64,000 bases of DNA, taken from the NCBI GenBank assembly GCA_964016885.1, contig CAXHJY010000762.1:1-64000 (forward strand). Direction: 5' to 3'. Both the position numbers and the translations under genes were made by a program. The notes beneath the pieces are model-generated. The model saw only the letters and a list, made by a program, of their open reading frames with translations, was not told the origin of the DNA and did not search any database. Positions 1,365-23,875 of the stretch are shown piece by piece (position 1 is the stretch's first letter; every line of letters begins with the position of its first letter). This DNA comes from Eledone cirrhosa (lineage: Eukaryota).

Positions 1365-1771
1365 GTATATATATATATATATATACATATGTATATATAT
1401 ATATATATATACATATGTATATATATACATATGTATATATATATATGTATATATATACATATATCTATATGTATATATGTATATAAATGCTTATATACCT
1501 ATATATATATACACAAACACACACAAATATACATGTATCTACATTGTGTGCTACAGACACACACATATATATATATAGTTTGTGTGTATGTGTGTGTAGT
1601 TCTGTGTGTGTATGTGTGTGTAGTTCTATGTGTCTGTGTGTGTAAAGGAAATAAAGAACTATAACATATGGTCTGACAGACACTTTAGTACGAGTTAACA
1701 GGGAAGAAGATATAAAGAAATCGCTTTATATACATACATATATATATATATATATATGTCTATATATATAA

Positions 1772-1805
<34 letters not shown>

Positions 1806-1862
1806 GTCTATAGACATATATATATATATGTCTATATATATATATATATGTCTATATATATA

Positions 1863-2261
1863 TAAGTATGCATGTATACGTACATACATATATGTATACA
1901 GACGTACAGTAGCATGCACATATATATATATATACATATATATATACATATGCATACAGGTACACATACATATATGCACGTATCAGTTTAGCGGCGCTAA
2001 CGTCGCTTTGTTCGTTTGTAAACAAACTGAACAGCCTGAACAAAAAGGTGACGTGGTTGCCTTAACACCGTATGGCATAAATTCAGGCTGTTCAGTTTGT
2101 TTACAAACGAACAAAGCGACGTTAGCGCCGCTAAACTGATACGTGCATATATGTATGTGTACCTGTATGCATATGTATATATATATGTATATATATATAT
2201 ATATGTGCATGCTACTGTACGTCTGTATACATATATGTATGTACGTATACATGCATACTTA
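1863..2261. repeat. Fold-back inverted duplication at the 5' end of the array
   Basis: 1863-2040 is the reverse complement of 2082-2261, with a 41-nt spacer (2041-2081). The junction uses the tgaa/ttca 4-bp complementarity present in the unit. Confidence 0.95.
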
Positions 2262-5200
2262 CATTTAAGTAAGTGCCATACTAAGAGTGAGAAATGAAAT
2301 TTCGTTTTCATTTTGTTTCAATTTATCGTTTTCGGTATGCCTGACCGATTTAACTCACTCAATATGCAAATTAGGCTGCTCAGCCGTTAATTTCATAAGG
2401 AAAGTATATACTTTCGAACGTTCAACTATCTGGCAGATAGGTAAACGGTGCTGATGATAGCTAACAAGCTTGAAACTAGTACATCGTTCCTGTGTCAGTG
2501 TTGAACAAAAAGGTGACGTGGTTGCCTTAACACCGTATGGCATAAATTCAGGCTGTTCAGTTTGTTTACAAACGAACAAAGCGACGTTAGCGCCGCTAAA
2601 CTGATACGTGCATATATGTATGTGTACCTGTATGCATATGTATATATATATATATATATATGTGCATGCTACTGTACGTCTGTATACATATATGTATGTA
2701 CGTATACATGCATACTTACATTTAAGTAAGTGCCATACTAAGAGTGAGAAATGAAATTTCGTTTTCATTTTGTTTCAATTTATCGTTTTCGGTATGCCTG
2801 ACCGATTTAACTCACTCAATATGCAAATTAGGCTGCTCAGCCGTTAATTTTCATAAGGAAAGTATATACTTTCGAACGTTCAACTATCTGGCAGATAGGT
2901 AAACGGTGCTGATGATAGCTAACAAGCTTGAAACTAGTACATCGTTCCTGTGTCAGTGTTGAACAAAAAGGTGACGTGGTTGCCTTAACACCGTATGGCA
3001 TAAATTCAGGCTGTTCAGTTTGTTTACAAACGAACAAAGCGACGTTAGCGCCGCTAAACTGATACGTGCATATATGTATGTGTACCTGTATGCATATGTA
3101 TATATATATGTATATATATATATATATGTGCATGCTACTGTACGTCTGTATACATATATGTATGTACGTATACATGCATACTTACATTTAAGTAAGTGCC
3201 ATACTAAGAGTGAGAAATGAAATTTCGTTTTCATTTTGTTTCAATTTATCGTTTTCGGTATGCCTGACCGATTTAACTCACTCAATATGCAAATTAGGCT
3301 GCTCAGCCGTTAATTTTCATAAGGAAAGTATATACTTTCGAACGTTCAACTATCTGGCAGATAGGTAAACGGTGCTGATGATAGCTAACAAGCTTGAAAC
3401 TAGTACATCGTTCCGGTGTCAGTGTTGAACAAAAAGGTGACGTGGTTGCCTTAACACCGTATGGCATAAATTCAGGCTGTTCAGTTTGTTTACAAACGAA
3501 CAAAGCGACGTTAGCGCCGCTAAACTGATACGTGCATATATGTATGTGTACCTGTATGCATATGTATATATATATGTATATATATATATATATGTGCATG
3601 CTACTGTACGTCTGTATACATATATGTATGTACGTATACATGCATACTTACATTTAAGTAAGTGCCATACTAAGAGTGAGAAATGAAATTTCGTTTTCAT
3701 TTTGTTTCAATTTATCGTTTTCGGTATGCCTGACCGATTTAACTCACTCAATATGCAAATTAGGCTGCTCAGCCGTTAATTTTCATAAGGAAAGTATATA
3801 CTTTCGAACGTTCAACTATCTGGCAGATAGGTAAACGGTGCTGATGATAGCTAACAAGCTTGAAACTAGTACATCGTTCCTGTGTCAGTGTTGAACAAAA
3901 AGGTGACGTGGTTGCCTTAACACCGTATGGCATAAATTCAGGCTGTTCAGTTTGTTTACAAACGAACAAAGCGACGTTAGCGCCGCTAAACTGATACGTG
4001 CATATATGTATGTGTACCTGTATGCATATGTATATATATATGTATATATATATATATATGTGCATGCTACTGTACGTCTGTATACATATATGTATGTACG
4101 TATACATGCATACTTACATTTAAGTAAGTGCCATACTAAGAGTGAGAAATGAAATTTCGTTTTCATTTTGTTTCAATTTATCGCTTTCGGTATGCCTGAC
4201 CGATTTAACTCACTCAATATGCAAATTAGGCTGCTCAGCCGTTAATTTTCATAAGGAAAGTATATACTTTCGAACGTTCAACTATCTGGCAGATAGGTAA
4301 ACGGTGCTGATGATAGCTAACAAGCTTGAAACTAGTACATCGTTCCTGTGTCAGTGTTGAACAAAAAGGTGACGTGGTTGCCTTAACACCGTATGGCATA
4401 AATTCAGGCTGTTCAGTTTGTTTACAAACGAACAAAGCGACGTTAGCGCCGCTAAACTGATACGTGCATATATGTATGTGTACCTGTATGCATATGTATA
4501 TATATATGTATATATATATATATATGTGCATGCTACTGTACGTCTGTATACATATATGTATGTACGTATACATGCATACTTACATTTAAGTAAGTGCCAT
4601 ACTAAGAGTGAGAAATGAAATTTCGTTTTCATTTTGTTTCAATTTATCGTTTTCGGTATGCCTGACCGATTTAACTCACTCAATATGCAAATTAGGCTGC
4701 TCAGCCGTTAATTTTCATAAGGAAAGTATATACTTTCGAACGTTCAACTATCTGGCAGATAGGTAAACGGTGCTGATGATAGCTAACAAGCTTGAAACTA
4801 GTACATCGTTCCTGTGTCAGTGTTGAACAAAAAGGTGACGTGGTTGCCTTAACACCGTATGGCATAAATTCAGGCTGTTCAGTTTGTTTACAAACGAACA
4901 AAGCGACGTTAGCGCCGCTAAACTGATACGTGCATATATGTATGTGTACCTGTATGCATATGTATATATATATGTATATATATATATATATGTGCATGCT
5001 ACTGTACGTCTGTATACATATATGTATGTACGTATACATGCATACTTACATTTAAGTAAGTGCCATACTAAGAGTGAGAAATGAAATTTCGTTTTCATTT
5101 TGTTTCAATTTATCGTTTTCGGTATGCCTGACCGATTTAACTCACTCAATATGCAAATTAGGCTGCTCAGCCGTTAATTTTCATAAGGAAAGTATATACT

Positions 5201-7444
5201 TTCGAACGTTCAACTATCTGGCAGATAGGTAAACGGTGCTGATGATAGCTAACAAGCTTGAAACTAGTACATCGTTCCTGTGTCAGTGTTGAACAAAAAG
5301 GTGACGTGGTTGCCTTAACACCGTATGGCATAAATTCAGGCTGTTCAGTTTGTTTACAAACGAACAAAGCGACGTTAGCGCCGCTAAACTGATACGTGCA
5401 TATATGTATGTGTACCTGTATGCATATGTATATATATATGTATATATATATATATATGTGCATGCTACTGTACGTCTGTATACATATATGTATGTACGTA
5501 TACATGCATACTTACATTTAAGTAAGTGCCATACTAAGAGTGAGAAATGAAATTTCGTTTTCATTTTGTTTCAATTTATCGTTTTCGGTATGCCTGACCG
5601 ATTTAACTCACTCAATATGCAAATTAGGCTGCTCAGCCGTTAATTTTCATAAGGAAAGTATATACTTTCGAACGTTCAACTATCTGGCAGATAGGTAAAC
5701 GGTGCTGATGATAGCTAACAAGCTTGAAACTAGTACATCGTTCCTGTGTCAGTGTTGAACAAAAAGGTGACGTGGTTGCCTTAACACCGTATGGCATAAA
5801 TTCAGGCTGTTCAGTTTGTTTACAAACGAACAAAGCGACGTTAGCGCCGCTAAACTGATACGTGCATATATGTATGTGTACCTGTATGCATATGTATATA
5901 TATATGTATATATATATATATATGTGCATGCTACTGTACGTCTGTATACATATATGTATGTACGTATACATGCATACTTACATTTAAGTAAGTGCCATAC
6001 TAAGAGTGAGAAATGAAATTTCGTTTTCATTTTGTTTCAATTTATCGTTTTCGGTATGCCTGACCGATTTAACTCACTCAATATGCAAATTAGGCTGCTC
6101 AGCCGTTAATTTTCATAAGGAAAGTATATACTTTCGAACGTTCAACTATCTGGCAGATAGGTAAACGGTGCTGATGATAGCTAACAAGCTTGAAACTAGT
6201 ACATCGTTCCTGTGTCAGTGTTGAACAAAAAGGTGACGTGGTTGCCTTAACACCGTATGGCATAAATTCAGGCTGTTCAGTTTGTTTACAAACGAACAAA
6301 GCGACGTTAGCGCCGCTAAACTGATACGTGCATATATGTATGTGTACCTGTATGCATATGTATATATATATGTATATATATATATATATGTGCATGCTAC
6401 TGTACGTCTGTATACATATATGTATGTACGTATACATGCATACTTACATTTAAGTAAGTGCCATACTAAGAGTGAGAAATGAAATTTCGTTTTCATTTTG
6501 TTTCAATTTATCGTTTTCGGTATGCCTGACCGATTTAACTCACTCAATATGCAAATTAGGCTGCTCAGCCGTTAATTTTCATAAGGAAAGTATATACTTT
6601 CGAACGTTCAACTATCTGGCAGATAGGTAAACGGTGCTGATGATAGCTAACAAGCTTGAAACTAGTACATCGTTCCTGTGTCAGTGTTGAACAAAAAGGT
6701 GACGTGGTTGCCTTAACACCGTATGGCATAAATTCAGGCTGTTCAGTTTGTTTACAAACGAACAAAGCGACGTTAGCGCCGCTAAACTGATACGTGCATA
6801 TATGTATGTGTACCTGTATGCATATGTATATATATATGTATATATATATATATATGTGCATGCTACTGTACGTCTGTATACATATATGTATGTACGTATA
6901 CATGCATACTTACATTTAAGTAAGTGCCATACTAAGAGTGACAAATGAAATTTCGTTTTCATTTTGTTTCAATTTATCGTTTTCGGTATGCCTGACCGAT
7001 TTAACTCACTCAATATGCAAATTAGGCTGCTCAGCCGTTAATTTTCATAAGGAAAGTATATACTTTCGAACGTTCAACTATCTGGCAGATAGGTAAACGG
7101 TGCTGATGATAGCTAACAAGCTTGAAACTAGTACATCGTTCCTGTGTCAGTGTTGAACAAAAAGGTGACGTGGTTGCCTTAACACCGTATGGCATAAATT
7201 CAGGCTGTTCAGTTTGTTTACAAACGAACAAAGCGACGTTAGCGCCGCTAAACTGATACGTGCATATATGTATGTGTACCTGTATGCATATGTATATATA
7301 TATGTATATATATATATATATGTGCATGCTACTGTACGTCTGTATACATATATGTATGTACGTATACATGCATACTTACATTTAAGTAAGTGCCATACTA
7401 AGAGTGAGAAATGAAATTTCGTTTTCATTTTGTTTCAATTTATC
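2037..7444 (+). repeat. Tandem array of ~11.6 copies of a 466-bp unit, each full unit carrying a hammerhead ribozyme (retrozyme-like / Penelope pLTR-like array)
   Basis: CTGATGA core recurs at 2451, 2909, 3375, 3841, 4307, 4773, 5239, 5705, 6171, 6637 and 7103 (period 466; first interval 458 owing to a shorter internal TA tract). I noticed only three substitutions (3415, 4184, 6942). Confidence 0.97.
2439..2491 (+). ncRNA. Minimal type I hammerhead ribozyme (first of 11 copies)
   Basis: agg-ta-AACGGTG (stem I) CTGATGA t AGCT-aaca-AGCT (stem II) t GAAA CTAG TA^ CATCGTT-cct (stem I'). Intact CUGAUGA/GAAA core, GUA cleavage triplet (cut after 2481), palindromic ACTAGT stem III typical of dimer-forming minimal HHRs. 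Confidence 0.9.
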
Positions 7445-12375
<4,931 letters not shown>

Positions 12376-13378
12376 CTGTATTCTATATATACACACACAC
12401 ACACACACACAGACATATATATATATTATATTGGGAGAGAGGGAGAGAGAGAGAGCGTGTGTCTGTGTAAGACAAAAGCAAAAAAATAATGAGAAGTGAG
12501 GGAGGGTAGAGAGAAGACTGCTGGTCATTATTTCCTAGAATGGTCAATTTAAGCCGTTGTTTGGTGACATTTTTCTGTTAAATATATAGCACTGTTGTTT
12601 ACAGTCTGCTATTGAAAGCTCACTAAACATAATTAGTGAAGCGTGGAAGTTAAATGAATGAAAAACATATTATTTGTTTGGGAAATGTGAGTTCAAATTC
12701 ACTGTTTCGAATAAAACTAGGTTGTTTTAAAAATTATAAATATTTTAAAGTTATATATTTCATGTAGCTGTCGAGAGTATATATGGGATTGTCTAGTCCC
12801 GTGTCAACACTGGCTTAAAAGTCAAGGGCTCGTCTCAATTTCCGTTTAACTTTTCCATTCAGTGTGTCCAATGCCATGGAATACCTGGGGCGATACACCT
12901 ATTGTGATATCGCTGATGTGTACACATGTCATATCACAGATGTGTGCAATGATATGGCATGTTTCCGCCCCACCTCGTAACCACCGTAAAGGCCCTGTCA
13001 TCAGGGTCAATTGGTATTCACCTGGTCGGTGACTGTTTCTCTGTTGGTGTTTTACCCGAAGCTCTGCCCCCAGATCTTAATACAACACAAATGCCGTTGC
13101 ACATCCACGCTAGATTCTTTCGGCCTATAACCACTGTCATACCACCTCGGTGGTTGTCGTATTCCACACCAAGTCGATCTCAAAGATATTTTAAGCAGGG
13201 CTTGACGATGCTGGCTTCCCATCGCAGCTAGTTAGTATAAGACAGAAGGGTCGGTAAAGGGCCAGATAGCATTAGCAACTTCCTTTTTTGTGGAGGCAAG
13301 CCCCTCATCCTTGACGTGACATGCAGTCACAATTTTTCTAGCAGTAAGTCAGCGACAGGTCCAAGTTTCTTCATCACC

Positions 13379-13426
<48 letters not shown>

Positions 13427-13428
<2 letters not shown>

Positions 13429-13700
13429 AGAACGAAGAATCAGTGATGCATCGGAACACAATTTATTACGTATTACAATTGTTTATCCGGCGAACAGCTC
13501 GAGATACGATCTATCTGAGGATCGAACCTGACTCTGGAGAAAGAGGATTTGCTTCGAAATCACTAGACGTATCTGAGGAACTTGCGAATCCAGAATCAGG
13601 TTCGATCCACAAACAGATCACACCTCAAGCTGTTCGCCAGAGAAACAATTGTAATACGTACTAAATTGTGTTTCGATGCATCACTGATTCTTCGTTTTCC
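13427..13700. mobile_element. Fold-back / MITE-like element with ~110-bp imperfect inverted arms, next to (TA)n
   Basis: ggagaacgaagaatcagtgatgcatcgg... at 13427 versus ...cgatgcatcactgattcttcgttttcc ending at 13700; ~50-nt central loop. Confidence 0.75.
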
Positions 13701-13780
13701 ATATTATTATACTCTGCTCCGAAGGAGAATAGAGTGCTCAACCGGCATACCGCCTATGGACGTATCCAAGCAACCTTACT

Positions 13781-18398: not shown

Positions 18399-18589
18399 CG
18401 AAGGAAGTGTGGTAAGGAACCAGATGGACCATAACGCACCAGAGTACTCAATACTTATTGTAGTAGAGTGGTTAATAGGAAAATGTTTAACCCCGACGGC
18501 AGAGCTCAAGCCGTTTCGACGGCTATTTCTGAACACTGAAATAGCCGTCGAAACGGCTTGAGCTCTGTCGTCGGGGTTAAACATTTTCC

Positions 18590-18592
<3 letters not shown>
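18397..18592 (-). mobile_element. Non-autonomous element with a fold-back palindrome built on the 3' half of a hammerhead ribozyme (family C, copy 1)
   Basis: Palindrome 18475-18592 (loop tgaacact); arm reads gccgtc GAAA CGGC ttgagctct GCCG TC ggggtt; homologous to 23693-23875; flanked by (TA)n. Confidence 0.75.
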
Positions 18593-23692: not shown

Positions 23693-23875
23693 AAGAGACA
23701 AAGGAAATGTGGTAAGGAACCAGATGGACCATAACGCACCAGAGTACTCAATACTTAGAGTAGTAGAGTGGGAAATAGGAAAAAGTATGACCCCGACAGC
23801 AGAGCTCAAGCCGTTTCGACGGCTATTTCCGTTGAAACGGCTTGAGCTCTGCCGTCGGGGTCATACTTTTCCTAT
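23693..23875 (-). mobile_element. Family C copy 2 with fold-back palindrome 23775-23875
   Basis: Same body as 18397-18592 (ggtaaggaaccagatggaccataacgcacc...); palindrome centred on gacgg-ctattt-ccgtt. Confidence 0.75.

What the first reader, a model, noticed from the sequence alone, without database searches (positions are those of the whole stretch)
2037..7444. Array is almost invariant and its ends are out of register with the cleavage site, suggesting rolling-circle reverse transcription in one event
Seen: only three substitutions (3415, 4184, 6942) and one 8-bp TA indel across ~5.4 kb. The array starts at tgaacaaaaagg, just downstream of the HHR, and ends at ...caatttatc running into (TA)n; neither end is the ribozyme cut site. 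Inference: a reverse transcriptase primed internally on a circular monomer and went round about 11.6 times in a single recent insertion, rather than the array growing gradually by unequal crossover.
Basis: partly seen in the sequence, partly recalled or inferred. Interest (0 to 1): 0.75.

Follow-up and report, generated by a model that had tools for sequence, protein, structure and literature searches.

The report
Two-armed ribozyme retroelement, Penelope-style insertion
This is a young copy of a non-coding jumping repeat with a ribozyme motif, sitting in a TA microsatellite as two back-to-back arms; because such insertions end at the same two fixed points, one per arm, a Penelope-type retrotransposon enzyme likely wrote it in one event from both sides of a DNA break, probably by going round an RNA circle.

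Summary
The near-invariant 11.6 x 466-bp array is real, but it is only one arm of the insertion. A missed 178-bp inverted arm (1863-2040) joins it head-to-head through a 4-nt microhomology, and the pair splits one TA microsatellite. The unit carries a minimal type I hammerhead motif and no ORF: a non-LTR retrozyme.

They fall at two fixed sites about 60-65 nt apart (A and B), one per arm: 35 of 35 callable insertions of this family, 22 of 22 of a sister family and 12 of 12 of an autonomous Penelope-like element (PLE) in the same genome. One inter-family chimera is A+A. This matches the PLE 'tail' and the two reverse-transcription start sites known in vitro.

Arrays carry one haplotype on both arms, within-arm divergence is about equal to between-arm, and this array is fixed for a variant found in 35 of 219 other units. 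One-event insertion is well supported; a circular template is likely (about 0.6) but unproven. One PLE-retrozyme fusion was found. The circle model is already proposed in print, and this scan noted the two-arm pattern before in other families.

The parts
1727..1862 (.). Left half of the (TA)n target microsatellite, with TGTC interruptions
   Evidence: same interrupted motif as the right flank
1863..2040 (-). Inverted arm, unit positions m66-m245; its outer end is site A; about 0.39 unit
   Evidence: identical to the unit apart from a 2-bp TA indel
2037..2040 (.). Head-to-head junction, 4-nt microhomology shared by both arms (m66 and m21)
2037..7444 (+). Long arm: 11.6 head-to-tail units of 466 bp, m21 to m311; its outer end is site B; non-coding, 36% GC
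   Evidence: longest stop-free stretch 114 codons
2446..2486 (+). First of 11 minimal type I hammerhead motifs: CUGAUGA and GAAA core, U.U at the base of helix II, one-pair helix III with a palindromic tetraloop; predicted cut after 2481
   Evidence: architecture as in passages of PMC7229834 and PMC4209133; cleavage not tested
3184..3190 (+). Site A within a unit (m245-251), in the loop of a predicted short hairpin; inferred reverse-transcription start site
3191..3243 (+). Sequence between A and B (the PLE-type 'tail'), with a predicted long hairpin; present at only one outer end of an insertion
3244..3250 (+). Site B within a unit (m305-311); the 6-mer TATCGT at this site is shared with the sister family and the autonomous PLE
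7445..12391 (.). Right half of the (TA)n target microsatellite

Best explanation
This is a non-LTR retrozyme insertion of two head-to-head arms with outer ends at two fixed sites, likely written in one event by a Penelope-like RT/GIY-YIG protein that primed from both ends of a cut TA microsatellite, probably on a circular monomer RNA. Steps: (1) the unit is non-coding, highly self-paired and has a minimal hammerhead (motif and predicted fold shown; cleavage untested); (2) multimeric transcripts would be cut by dimeric hammerheads and ligated into monomer circles (inferred from related retrozymes); (3) the PLE endonuclease would cut both strands of (TA)n (target shown; cutting inferred from PMC11167929); (4) one DNA end would prime at site A and the other at site B (end positions and pairing shown; priming inferred); (5) each RT would run on with strand displacement, here 11.6 turns from B and 0.39 turn from A (lengths shown; rolling inferred); (6) the two cDNA ends are joined head-to-head through a few bases of microhomology or filler (shown) and host repair would fill the second strands (inferred). 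My odds: single PLE-driven event about 0.9; circular monomer template about 0.65 given that.
For: A+B pairing in 69 of 70 callable head-to-head insertions over three families (P about 6e-20 if the ends were chosen independently at 1:1); two missing ends were predicted as A and confirmed on fetching. The autonomous PLE (1,240-aa ORF; RVT_1 E 9e-5, below cut-off; GIY-YIG E 7e-5, above cut-off) has the same two ends 60 nt apart, the same target and the same arms. Young arrays are fixed for their own haplotype on both arms. Within-arm is about equal to between-arm divergence from 0.1% to 11%. All 11 window units carry m424A, found in 35 of 219 units elsewhere (P 2e-9 if independent); unit 5 of the C1 array is identical to the window's modal unit while its neighbours carry G. 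In 3 of 21 sister-family pairs neither arm is contained in the other, and inner junction offsets are not clustered (5 of 30 within 50 nt, 6.5 expected). At C4:221.456 Mb, 1.8 young units are fused in the same orientation to a 5'-truncated PLE RT gene ending at its B site. Circular fold -153 kcal/mol, z -9.7; non-TA part z -4.3.
Against: No circle, cleavage or strand-specific expression was shown. L201 is A+A (a sister-family arm plus a chimeric arm). The unit shows no BLAST similarity to this PLE's terminal repeat, so the mobilising family is not identified. The fusion is 1 of 30 PLE loci examined and has a 24-nt filler; a later deletion between two neighbouring insertions could make it. Inner ends show a mild excess near the cut site (15 of 102, p 0.09), which linear RNAs with cut 5' ends would also give. 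L209 repeats a four-variant unit at positions 3 and 5, C4a has a 3-unit period and L230 a 5-unit duplication, so not every array is one monomer copied. The genome search scores only the best candidates, so a homogeneous source array could have been missed. The antisense non-TA part also folds below its shuffles (z -3.7).
Confidence: 0.6

Rival explanations
1. Same PLE two-ended priming in one event, but the template was a linear read-through multimer from a homogeneous tandem array, not a circle.
For: Minimal hammerheads cleave poorly (PMC4209133 passages); for the anole PLE, uncut RNA was the main substrate in vitro (PMC11167929). Long arrays that could be transcribed exist. Mild excess of inner ends near the cut site. 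The repeated variant unit in L209.
Against: It needs, for each young array, a longer source fixed for the same private haplotype; none was seen for the window's m424A among the loci held. Unit-specific variants are not mirrored between the arms in C1a, C6a or L217.
Confidence: 0.25
2. A short two-arm insertion (about 1.6 units in the long arm) was expanded afterwards by rapid unequal crossover or slippage.
For: This happens at some loci: higher-order repeats at C2:122.6 Mb, an array of at least 48 kb on C3, a 5-unit duplication in L230, shared variants in L106.
Against: All five window differences are singletons. Young loci have both inverted arms multi-unit with one haplotype (11.3+3.4, 8.1+5.5, 2.4+10.9 units). 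Old arms are as divergent within as between.
Confidence: 0.06
3. One primed cDNA folded back and copied itself to make the inverted arm (the self-priming idea of PMC3846280), and the endonuclease trimmed the second end at the other site.
For: A few junctions are nearly palindromic (L119, L124). In the window the two inner ends lie only 45 nt apart. 18 of 21 sister-family pairs are nested, though nesting is automatic when one arm is a unit longer.
Against: 3 of 21 sister-family pairs and 4 of 11 PLE pairs (read) are not nested, so one arm cannot be a copy of the other. Offsets are not clustered. Either arm type can be the longer one.
Confidence: 0.06
4. The homogeneity or copy number is an assembly artefact on an unplaced 81.5-kb contig.
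For: The contig is unplaced; no raw reads could be laid; the singletons could be consensus errors.
Against: Five of 12 units carry private differences. Chromosome-scale contigs hold equally homogeneous arrays of other haplotypes and lengths with the same end rule.
Confidence: 0.03

Closest known systems
Metazoan non-LTR retrozymes (PMC7229834; review PMC7761336; bioRxiv 10.64898/2026.07.22.740005)
   Same: Non-coding low-GC tandem units with a type I hammerhead in each unit, dimers to multimers, in a genome rich in PLEs. One-pair helix III with a palindromic tetraloop and U.U at the base of helix II are both described for axolotl motifs. A circular template copied into tandem cDNA is proposed there.
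   Different: The unit (466 bp) is slightly above the 150-450 bp of the 2020 paper but inside the 51-972 bp of the 2026 preprint. In the parts I read, those papers do not describe inverted second arms, fixed A/B ends or a PLE-retrozyme fusion. Circles and cleavage are shown there and not here.
Endonuclease-positive Penelope-like elements with C-terminal GIY-YIG (PMC8557442, PMC3846280, PMC11167929)
   Same: Inverted 5'-truncated copy head-to-head with the main copy, a tail at only one end, (TA)n or AT-rich targets, microhomology at 5' junctions, a hammerhead in the repeat, two internal RT start sites flanking the tail.
   Different: No ORF; arms are multimers of one short unit; the tail is 60-65 nt rather than 30-40; no detectable similarity to the terminal repeat of the one autonomous family examined; the one-A-one-B pairing is counted here and is nearly absolute.
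LINE-1 twin priming (search listing only, PMC2837659; details recalled)
   Same: Both target ends prime, giving an inverted 5' part joined by microhomology.
   Different: There the second primer lands at variable internal positions of a linear poly(A) RNA; here both start sites are fixed, internal and about 60 nt apart, and both arms can exceed one unit.

Membership tests
Non-LTR retrozyme | Short tandem units, each with a type I hammerhead motif | tested here: met
   11 intact cores at 466-bp spacing; helices predicted; weak Rfam HH9 alignment, E 0.021, below gathering; sister family has compensating helix I and II letters
Non-LTR retrozyme | No protein coding, GC below 45-50%, no LTR | tested here: met
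   Longest stop-free stretch 114 codons, GC 0.36; flanks are microsatellite. PBS and PPT were not searched separately
Non-LTR retrozyme | Dispersed multi-copy family with variable unit number | tested here: met
   More than 50 other loci with under 1 to over 10 units per arm; a lower bound
Non-LTR retrozyme | Self-cleavage of the transcript | not testable with these tools
   Needs in vitro transcription of a dimer
Non-LTR retrozyme | Accumulates as circular RNA | not testable with these tools
   Only assembled contigs of unrecorded library type were available
PLE-mobilised element | Inverted 5'-truncated copy head-to-head with the main copy | tested here: met
   Window 1863-2040; 35 callable two-arm loci of this family, 11 more with an uncallable end
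PLE-mobilised element | Tail present at one end only (two fixed 3' ends) | tested here: met
   69 of 70 pairs over three families
PLE-mobilised element | (TA)n target | tested here: met
   All 66 ends printed run into TA repeats; target-site duplication cannot be read in the repeat
PLE-mobilised element | Sequence related to the terminal repeat of an autonomous partner | tested here: inconclusive
   No BLAST similarity to the one family examined beyond a 6-mer at site B; other PLE families exist and were not examined; one fusion locus
Autonomous PLE | Single ORF with RT and GIY-YIG | tested here: not met
   The array has no ORF; the ORF lies in a separate family elsewhere in the genome

The most novel reading that the evidence does not exclude
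Double rolling-circle TPRT: an asymmetric PLE dimer docks on one circular retrozyme RNA with its two RT sites at A and B, each primed by one end of the cut microsatellite. The two enzymes chase each other round the circle, displacing each other's cDNA, and the two products are joined head-to-head. This would explain the one-tail rule, the inverted arm and the tandem multimers of all PLE-type insertions with one mechanism.
Probability: 0.35. Interest if true: 0.75.

Novelty: new member of a known kind. Interest (0 to 1): 0.52.

Why it matters
How PLEs make their tandem and inverted insertions with a one-sided tail is stated to be unresolved (PMC8557442), and PLE mobilisation of retrozymes through RNA circles is a proposal resting mostly on co-occurrence (PMC4209133, PMC7229834, 2026 preprint). 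This genome gives countable footprints: a near-absolute one-A-one-B rule shared by two retrozyme families and an autonomous PLE with intact ORFs, single-haplotype multi-unit arms, and a candidate fusion. It also supplies a defined 466-nt template with mapped start sites for a direct in vitro test.

Tried and rejected
Rfam at gathering threshold: no match in the window. Empty allele: the left flank 640-1120 has no second high-identity copy in the assembly, so no empty site could be compared. Expression: no RNA holder listed; this is no evidence either way. Of four runs laid on 2235-2610, two gave no contigs; one of unrecorded type gave 5,072 contigs with summed depth of 0.4-2.3 million over most bins and about 99% G at m424; contigs cannot show level, strand or circularity, so it is not counted as expression. 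The junction and flank were not examined in outside runs. Permuted outer ends: rejected. Ends at the ribozyme cut site: rejected for outer ends; inner ends show no significant excess (9 of 60, 6 of 42, together 15 of 102, p 0.09). Fold-back clustering of junctions: not seen. Partner by sequence: no similarity to the examined PLE's terminal repeat. The full-length PLE ORF gave no Pfam hit; its domains hit when cut out. PMC9977147 held nothing relevant. No structure or complex prediction was run, as no binding claim rests on one.
Full report
Observation. Tandem Repeats Finder gives 2037-7444, period 466, 11.6 copies, 99% matches. Unit-by-unit alignment confirms the three substitutions (3415, 4184, 6942) and the 8-bp TA deletion in unit 2, and adds a 1-bp deletion in unit 1; all five are singletons. 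Each full unit holds a hammerhead core, with predicted cuts after 2481 to 7133. I number the unit from the first base after the cut (m1). The array runs from m21 to m311. Both outer ends run into the same TGTC-interrupted (TA)n microsatellite.

The unit. It has no ORF and 36% GC. As a circle it folds to -153 kcal/mol against -105 +/- 5 for 60 shuffles; the non-TA part has z -4.3 sense and -3.7 antisense. The ribozyme motif has the conserved core, U.U at the base of helix II and a one-pair helix III closed by a palindromic tetraloop. Passages of PMC7229834 and PMC4209133 describe such motifs as working in dimers and being quiet in monomer circles. Rfam gives nothing at gathering and a weak HH9 alignment. 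Cleavage was not tested.

Other loci. The window is contig C789 of a 3.0-Gb assembly. Three searches (40 candidates scored each) gave more than 50 other loci, fetched with 10-kb context. Outer 3' ends fall at two sites: A (m245-251, in a predicted hairpin loop) and B (m305-311). I curated 33 head-to-head insertions with both ends callable. The script labelled 32 as mixed and L119 as B/B; the printed sequence and one search show that its right end is A, so 33 of 33 are one A plus one B (one older L117 pair is inferred across a nested insertion). Two more turned up later: L198, and a C2 locus whose A end was predicted before fetching. Left out: 11 two-arm or complex loci with an uncallable end (L037, L038, L044, L047, L048, first L053, L054, L058, first L067, L068, L124), 15 single-arm loci, and four duplicates with shared flanks (L123; L102, L108, L130; for three of them). 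Inner junctions spread over the whole unit, mostly with 0-7 nt of microhomology or short filler.

Independent sets. A sister family (467-bp unit, 67-76% identical) was found at L117. Of 36 regions fetched, 20 gave 21 callable pairs, all A+B; with L117 that is 22 of 22. Fifteen regions were single-armed or uncallable. L201 is the exception: a sister-family A arm and a chimeric arm that ends at this family's A. An abundant autonomous element (34,602 first-look candidates, 150 scored at 95-100% identity) has a 1,240-aa ORF with RT and C-terminal GIY-YIG, DKS and CX4CxxC motifs read from the sequence that suggest Neptune-type by the criteria in PMC8557442 passages (clade not tested by a tree), and a hammerhead-like motif in its repeat. 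It has two 3' ends 60 nt apart. I fetched 14 regions chosen for opposed hits or long ORFs; 12 showed both ends, all A'+B', one confirmed after prediction. Total 69 of 70.

One event or gradual growth. Young arrays are fixed for a private haplotype on both inverted arms: C1a 11.3+3.4 units, C6a 8.1+5.5, L034 2.4+10.9, L215 4.1+2.1. On alignable non-TA positions, within-arm against between-arm divergence is 0.0014/0.0007, 0.0016/0.0017, 0.0007/0.0003, 0.072/0.056, 0.067/0.052 and 0.112/0.109 for the six best-sampled of 12 other two-arm loci, and variants are mostly singletons. Arms were therefore born multi-unit. Against a universal rule: C4a has a 3-unit period, L230 a 5-unit duplication, L106 15 shared variants, L209 a repeated four-variant unit, and C2 and C3 hold large secondary arrays.

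Circle or line. All 11 window units have A at m424; elsewhere 35 of 219 units do, usually one per array. The array therefore descends from one A-bearing unit, and unit 5 of C1a is such a unit, identical to the window's modal unit. A monomer cut out by its ribozymes and copied round and round explains this directly. A linear transcript needs a longer array fixed for A, which I did not see, but the search is a lower bound. m424 is a recurrent change in a quasi-palindrome, so C1a need not be the source. Inner ends show only a weak excess near the cut. I put the circle at about 0.65 given a single event.

Both arms from RNA. In 3 of 21 sister-family pairs and 4 of 11 PLE pairs (read) neither arm is contained in the other, and junction offsets are not clustered, so the short arm is not generally a fold-back copy. 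PMC11167929 (abstract, main text and start of methods read) shows an anole PLE protein cutting and extending both strands of AT-rich DNA, starting at two internal sites that flank the tail, and predicted to be a dimer. The A+B rule is what two-ended priming with one site per end would leave. Whether both primers sit on the same RNA molecule is inferred from shared haplotypes; L201 shows that two RNAs, or two steps, can be involved.

Partner. At C4:221.456 Mb, 1.8 units at 97.7-100% identity are fused in the same orientation, through 24 nt of filler, to a 5'-truncated copy of the PLE that ends at B'. This is 1 of 30 PLE loci examined. A template jump by the PLE RT is the simple reading; a deletion between neighbours is not excluded. 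The unit is not similar to this PLE's repeat except for a 6-mer at B, and related PLE families at 68-89% protein identity exist.

What is known. Circular templates copied into more-than-unit cDNA by PLE RT are proposed in PMC4209133 and PMC7229834 (passages) and assumed in the 2026 preprint (parts 1-3 of 5 read). Inverted copies and a tail at one end are standard PLE features (PMC8557442 and PMC3846280 passages). PMC7761336 was seen in passages. Six literature searches (two returned nothing) showed no paper counting the A+B pairing, or reporting inverted arms or fusions for retrozymes. Subscription papers and the supplements of these papers (including Fig. S9 of PMC7229834, Fig. S2 of PMC11167929 and the closed preprint tables) were not seen and could bear on this. 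After I had stated my reading, earlier scan notes showed the same two-arm pattern in other families of this and other genomes; none matched this unit by sequence.

Verdict. Real; a new member of a known kind; single event well supported; circle likely; the permuted-ends prediction is replaced by a two-site rule. Interest 0.52.

Noticed in passing
L201 (G000:C3:124.40 Mb) and G000:C6 about 30,459,400: Two same-orientation junctions between the sister family and this family, one in the shared hairpin before site B and one just before the ribozyme helix III; likely template switches between retrozyme RNAs. L201 is the only A+A insertion.
   Followed up: partly
L117:4722-5185 and L118:3958-5361: Two loci on different chromosomes with unrelated flanks share the same inner junction (m424/m143) but differ by two units in the A arm.
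   Followed up: partly
m424 of the unit (window 2439 and every 466 bp): G-to-A at this position recurs in about 16% of units on different haplotypes. It perfects a hairpin stem, and several arms begin exactly here; quasi-palindrome repair and RT pausing are possible causes.
   Followed up: partly
L120:4768-6491: An insertion with four arms in alternating orientation that still has one A and one B outer end.
   Followed up: no
G000:C3:12.27-12.32 Mb; C2:122.63-122.69 Mb; C5:39.86-39.88 Mb: Large arrays grown from such insertions: at least 48 kb, about 53 kb with higher-order repeats, and at least 31 units of the sister family; satellites arising from retrozymes.
   Followed up: partly
L239/L240 (C7:34.37 Mb), C1a, L117: The unit's own internal TA tract serves as target for later PLE or retrozyme insertions, giving nested elements.
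   Followed up: no
window 2700-3100 in public runs: 20 runs from 15 studies under many organism labels hold part of the unit; wide distribution or cross-sample contamination, unresolved.
   Followed up: partly
window 13423-13704, 18475-18592, 23775-23875: Small palindromic elements, the first flanked by (TA)n; possibly head-to-head stubs of other PLE families.
   Followed up: no
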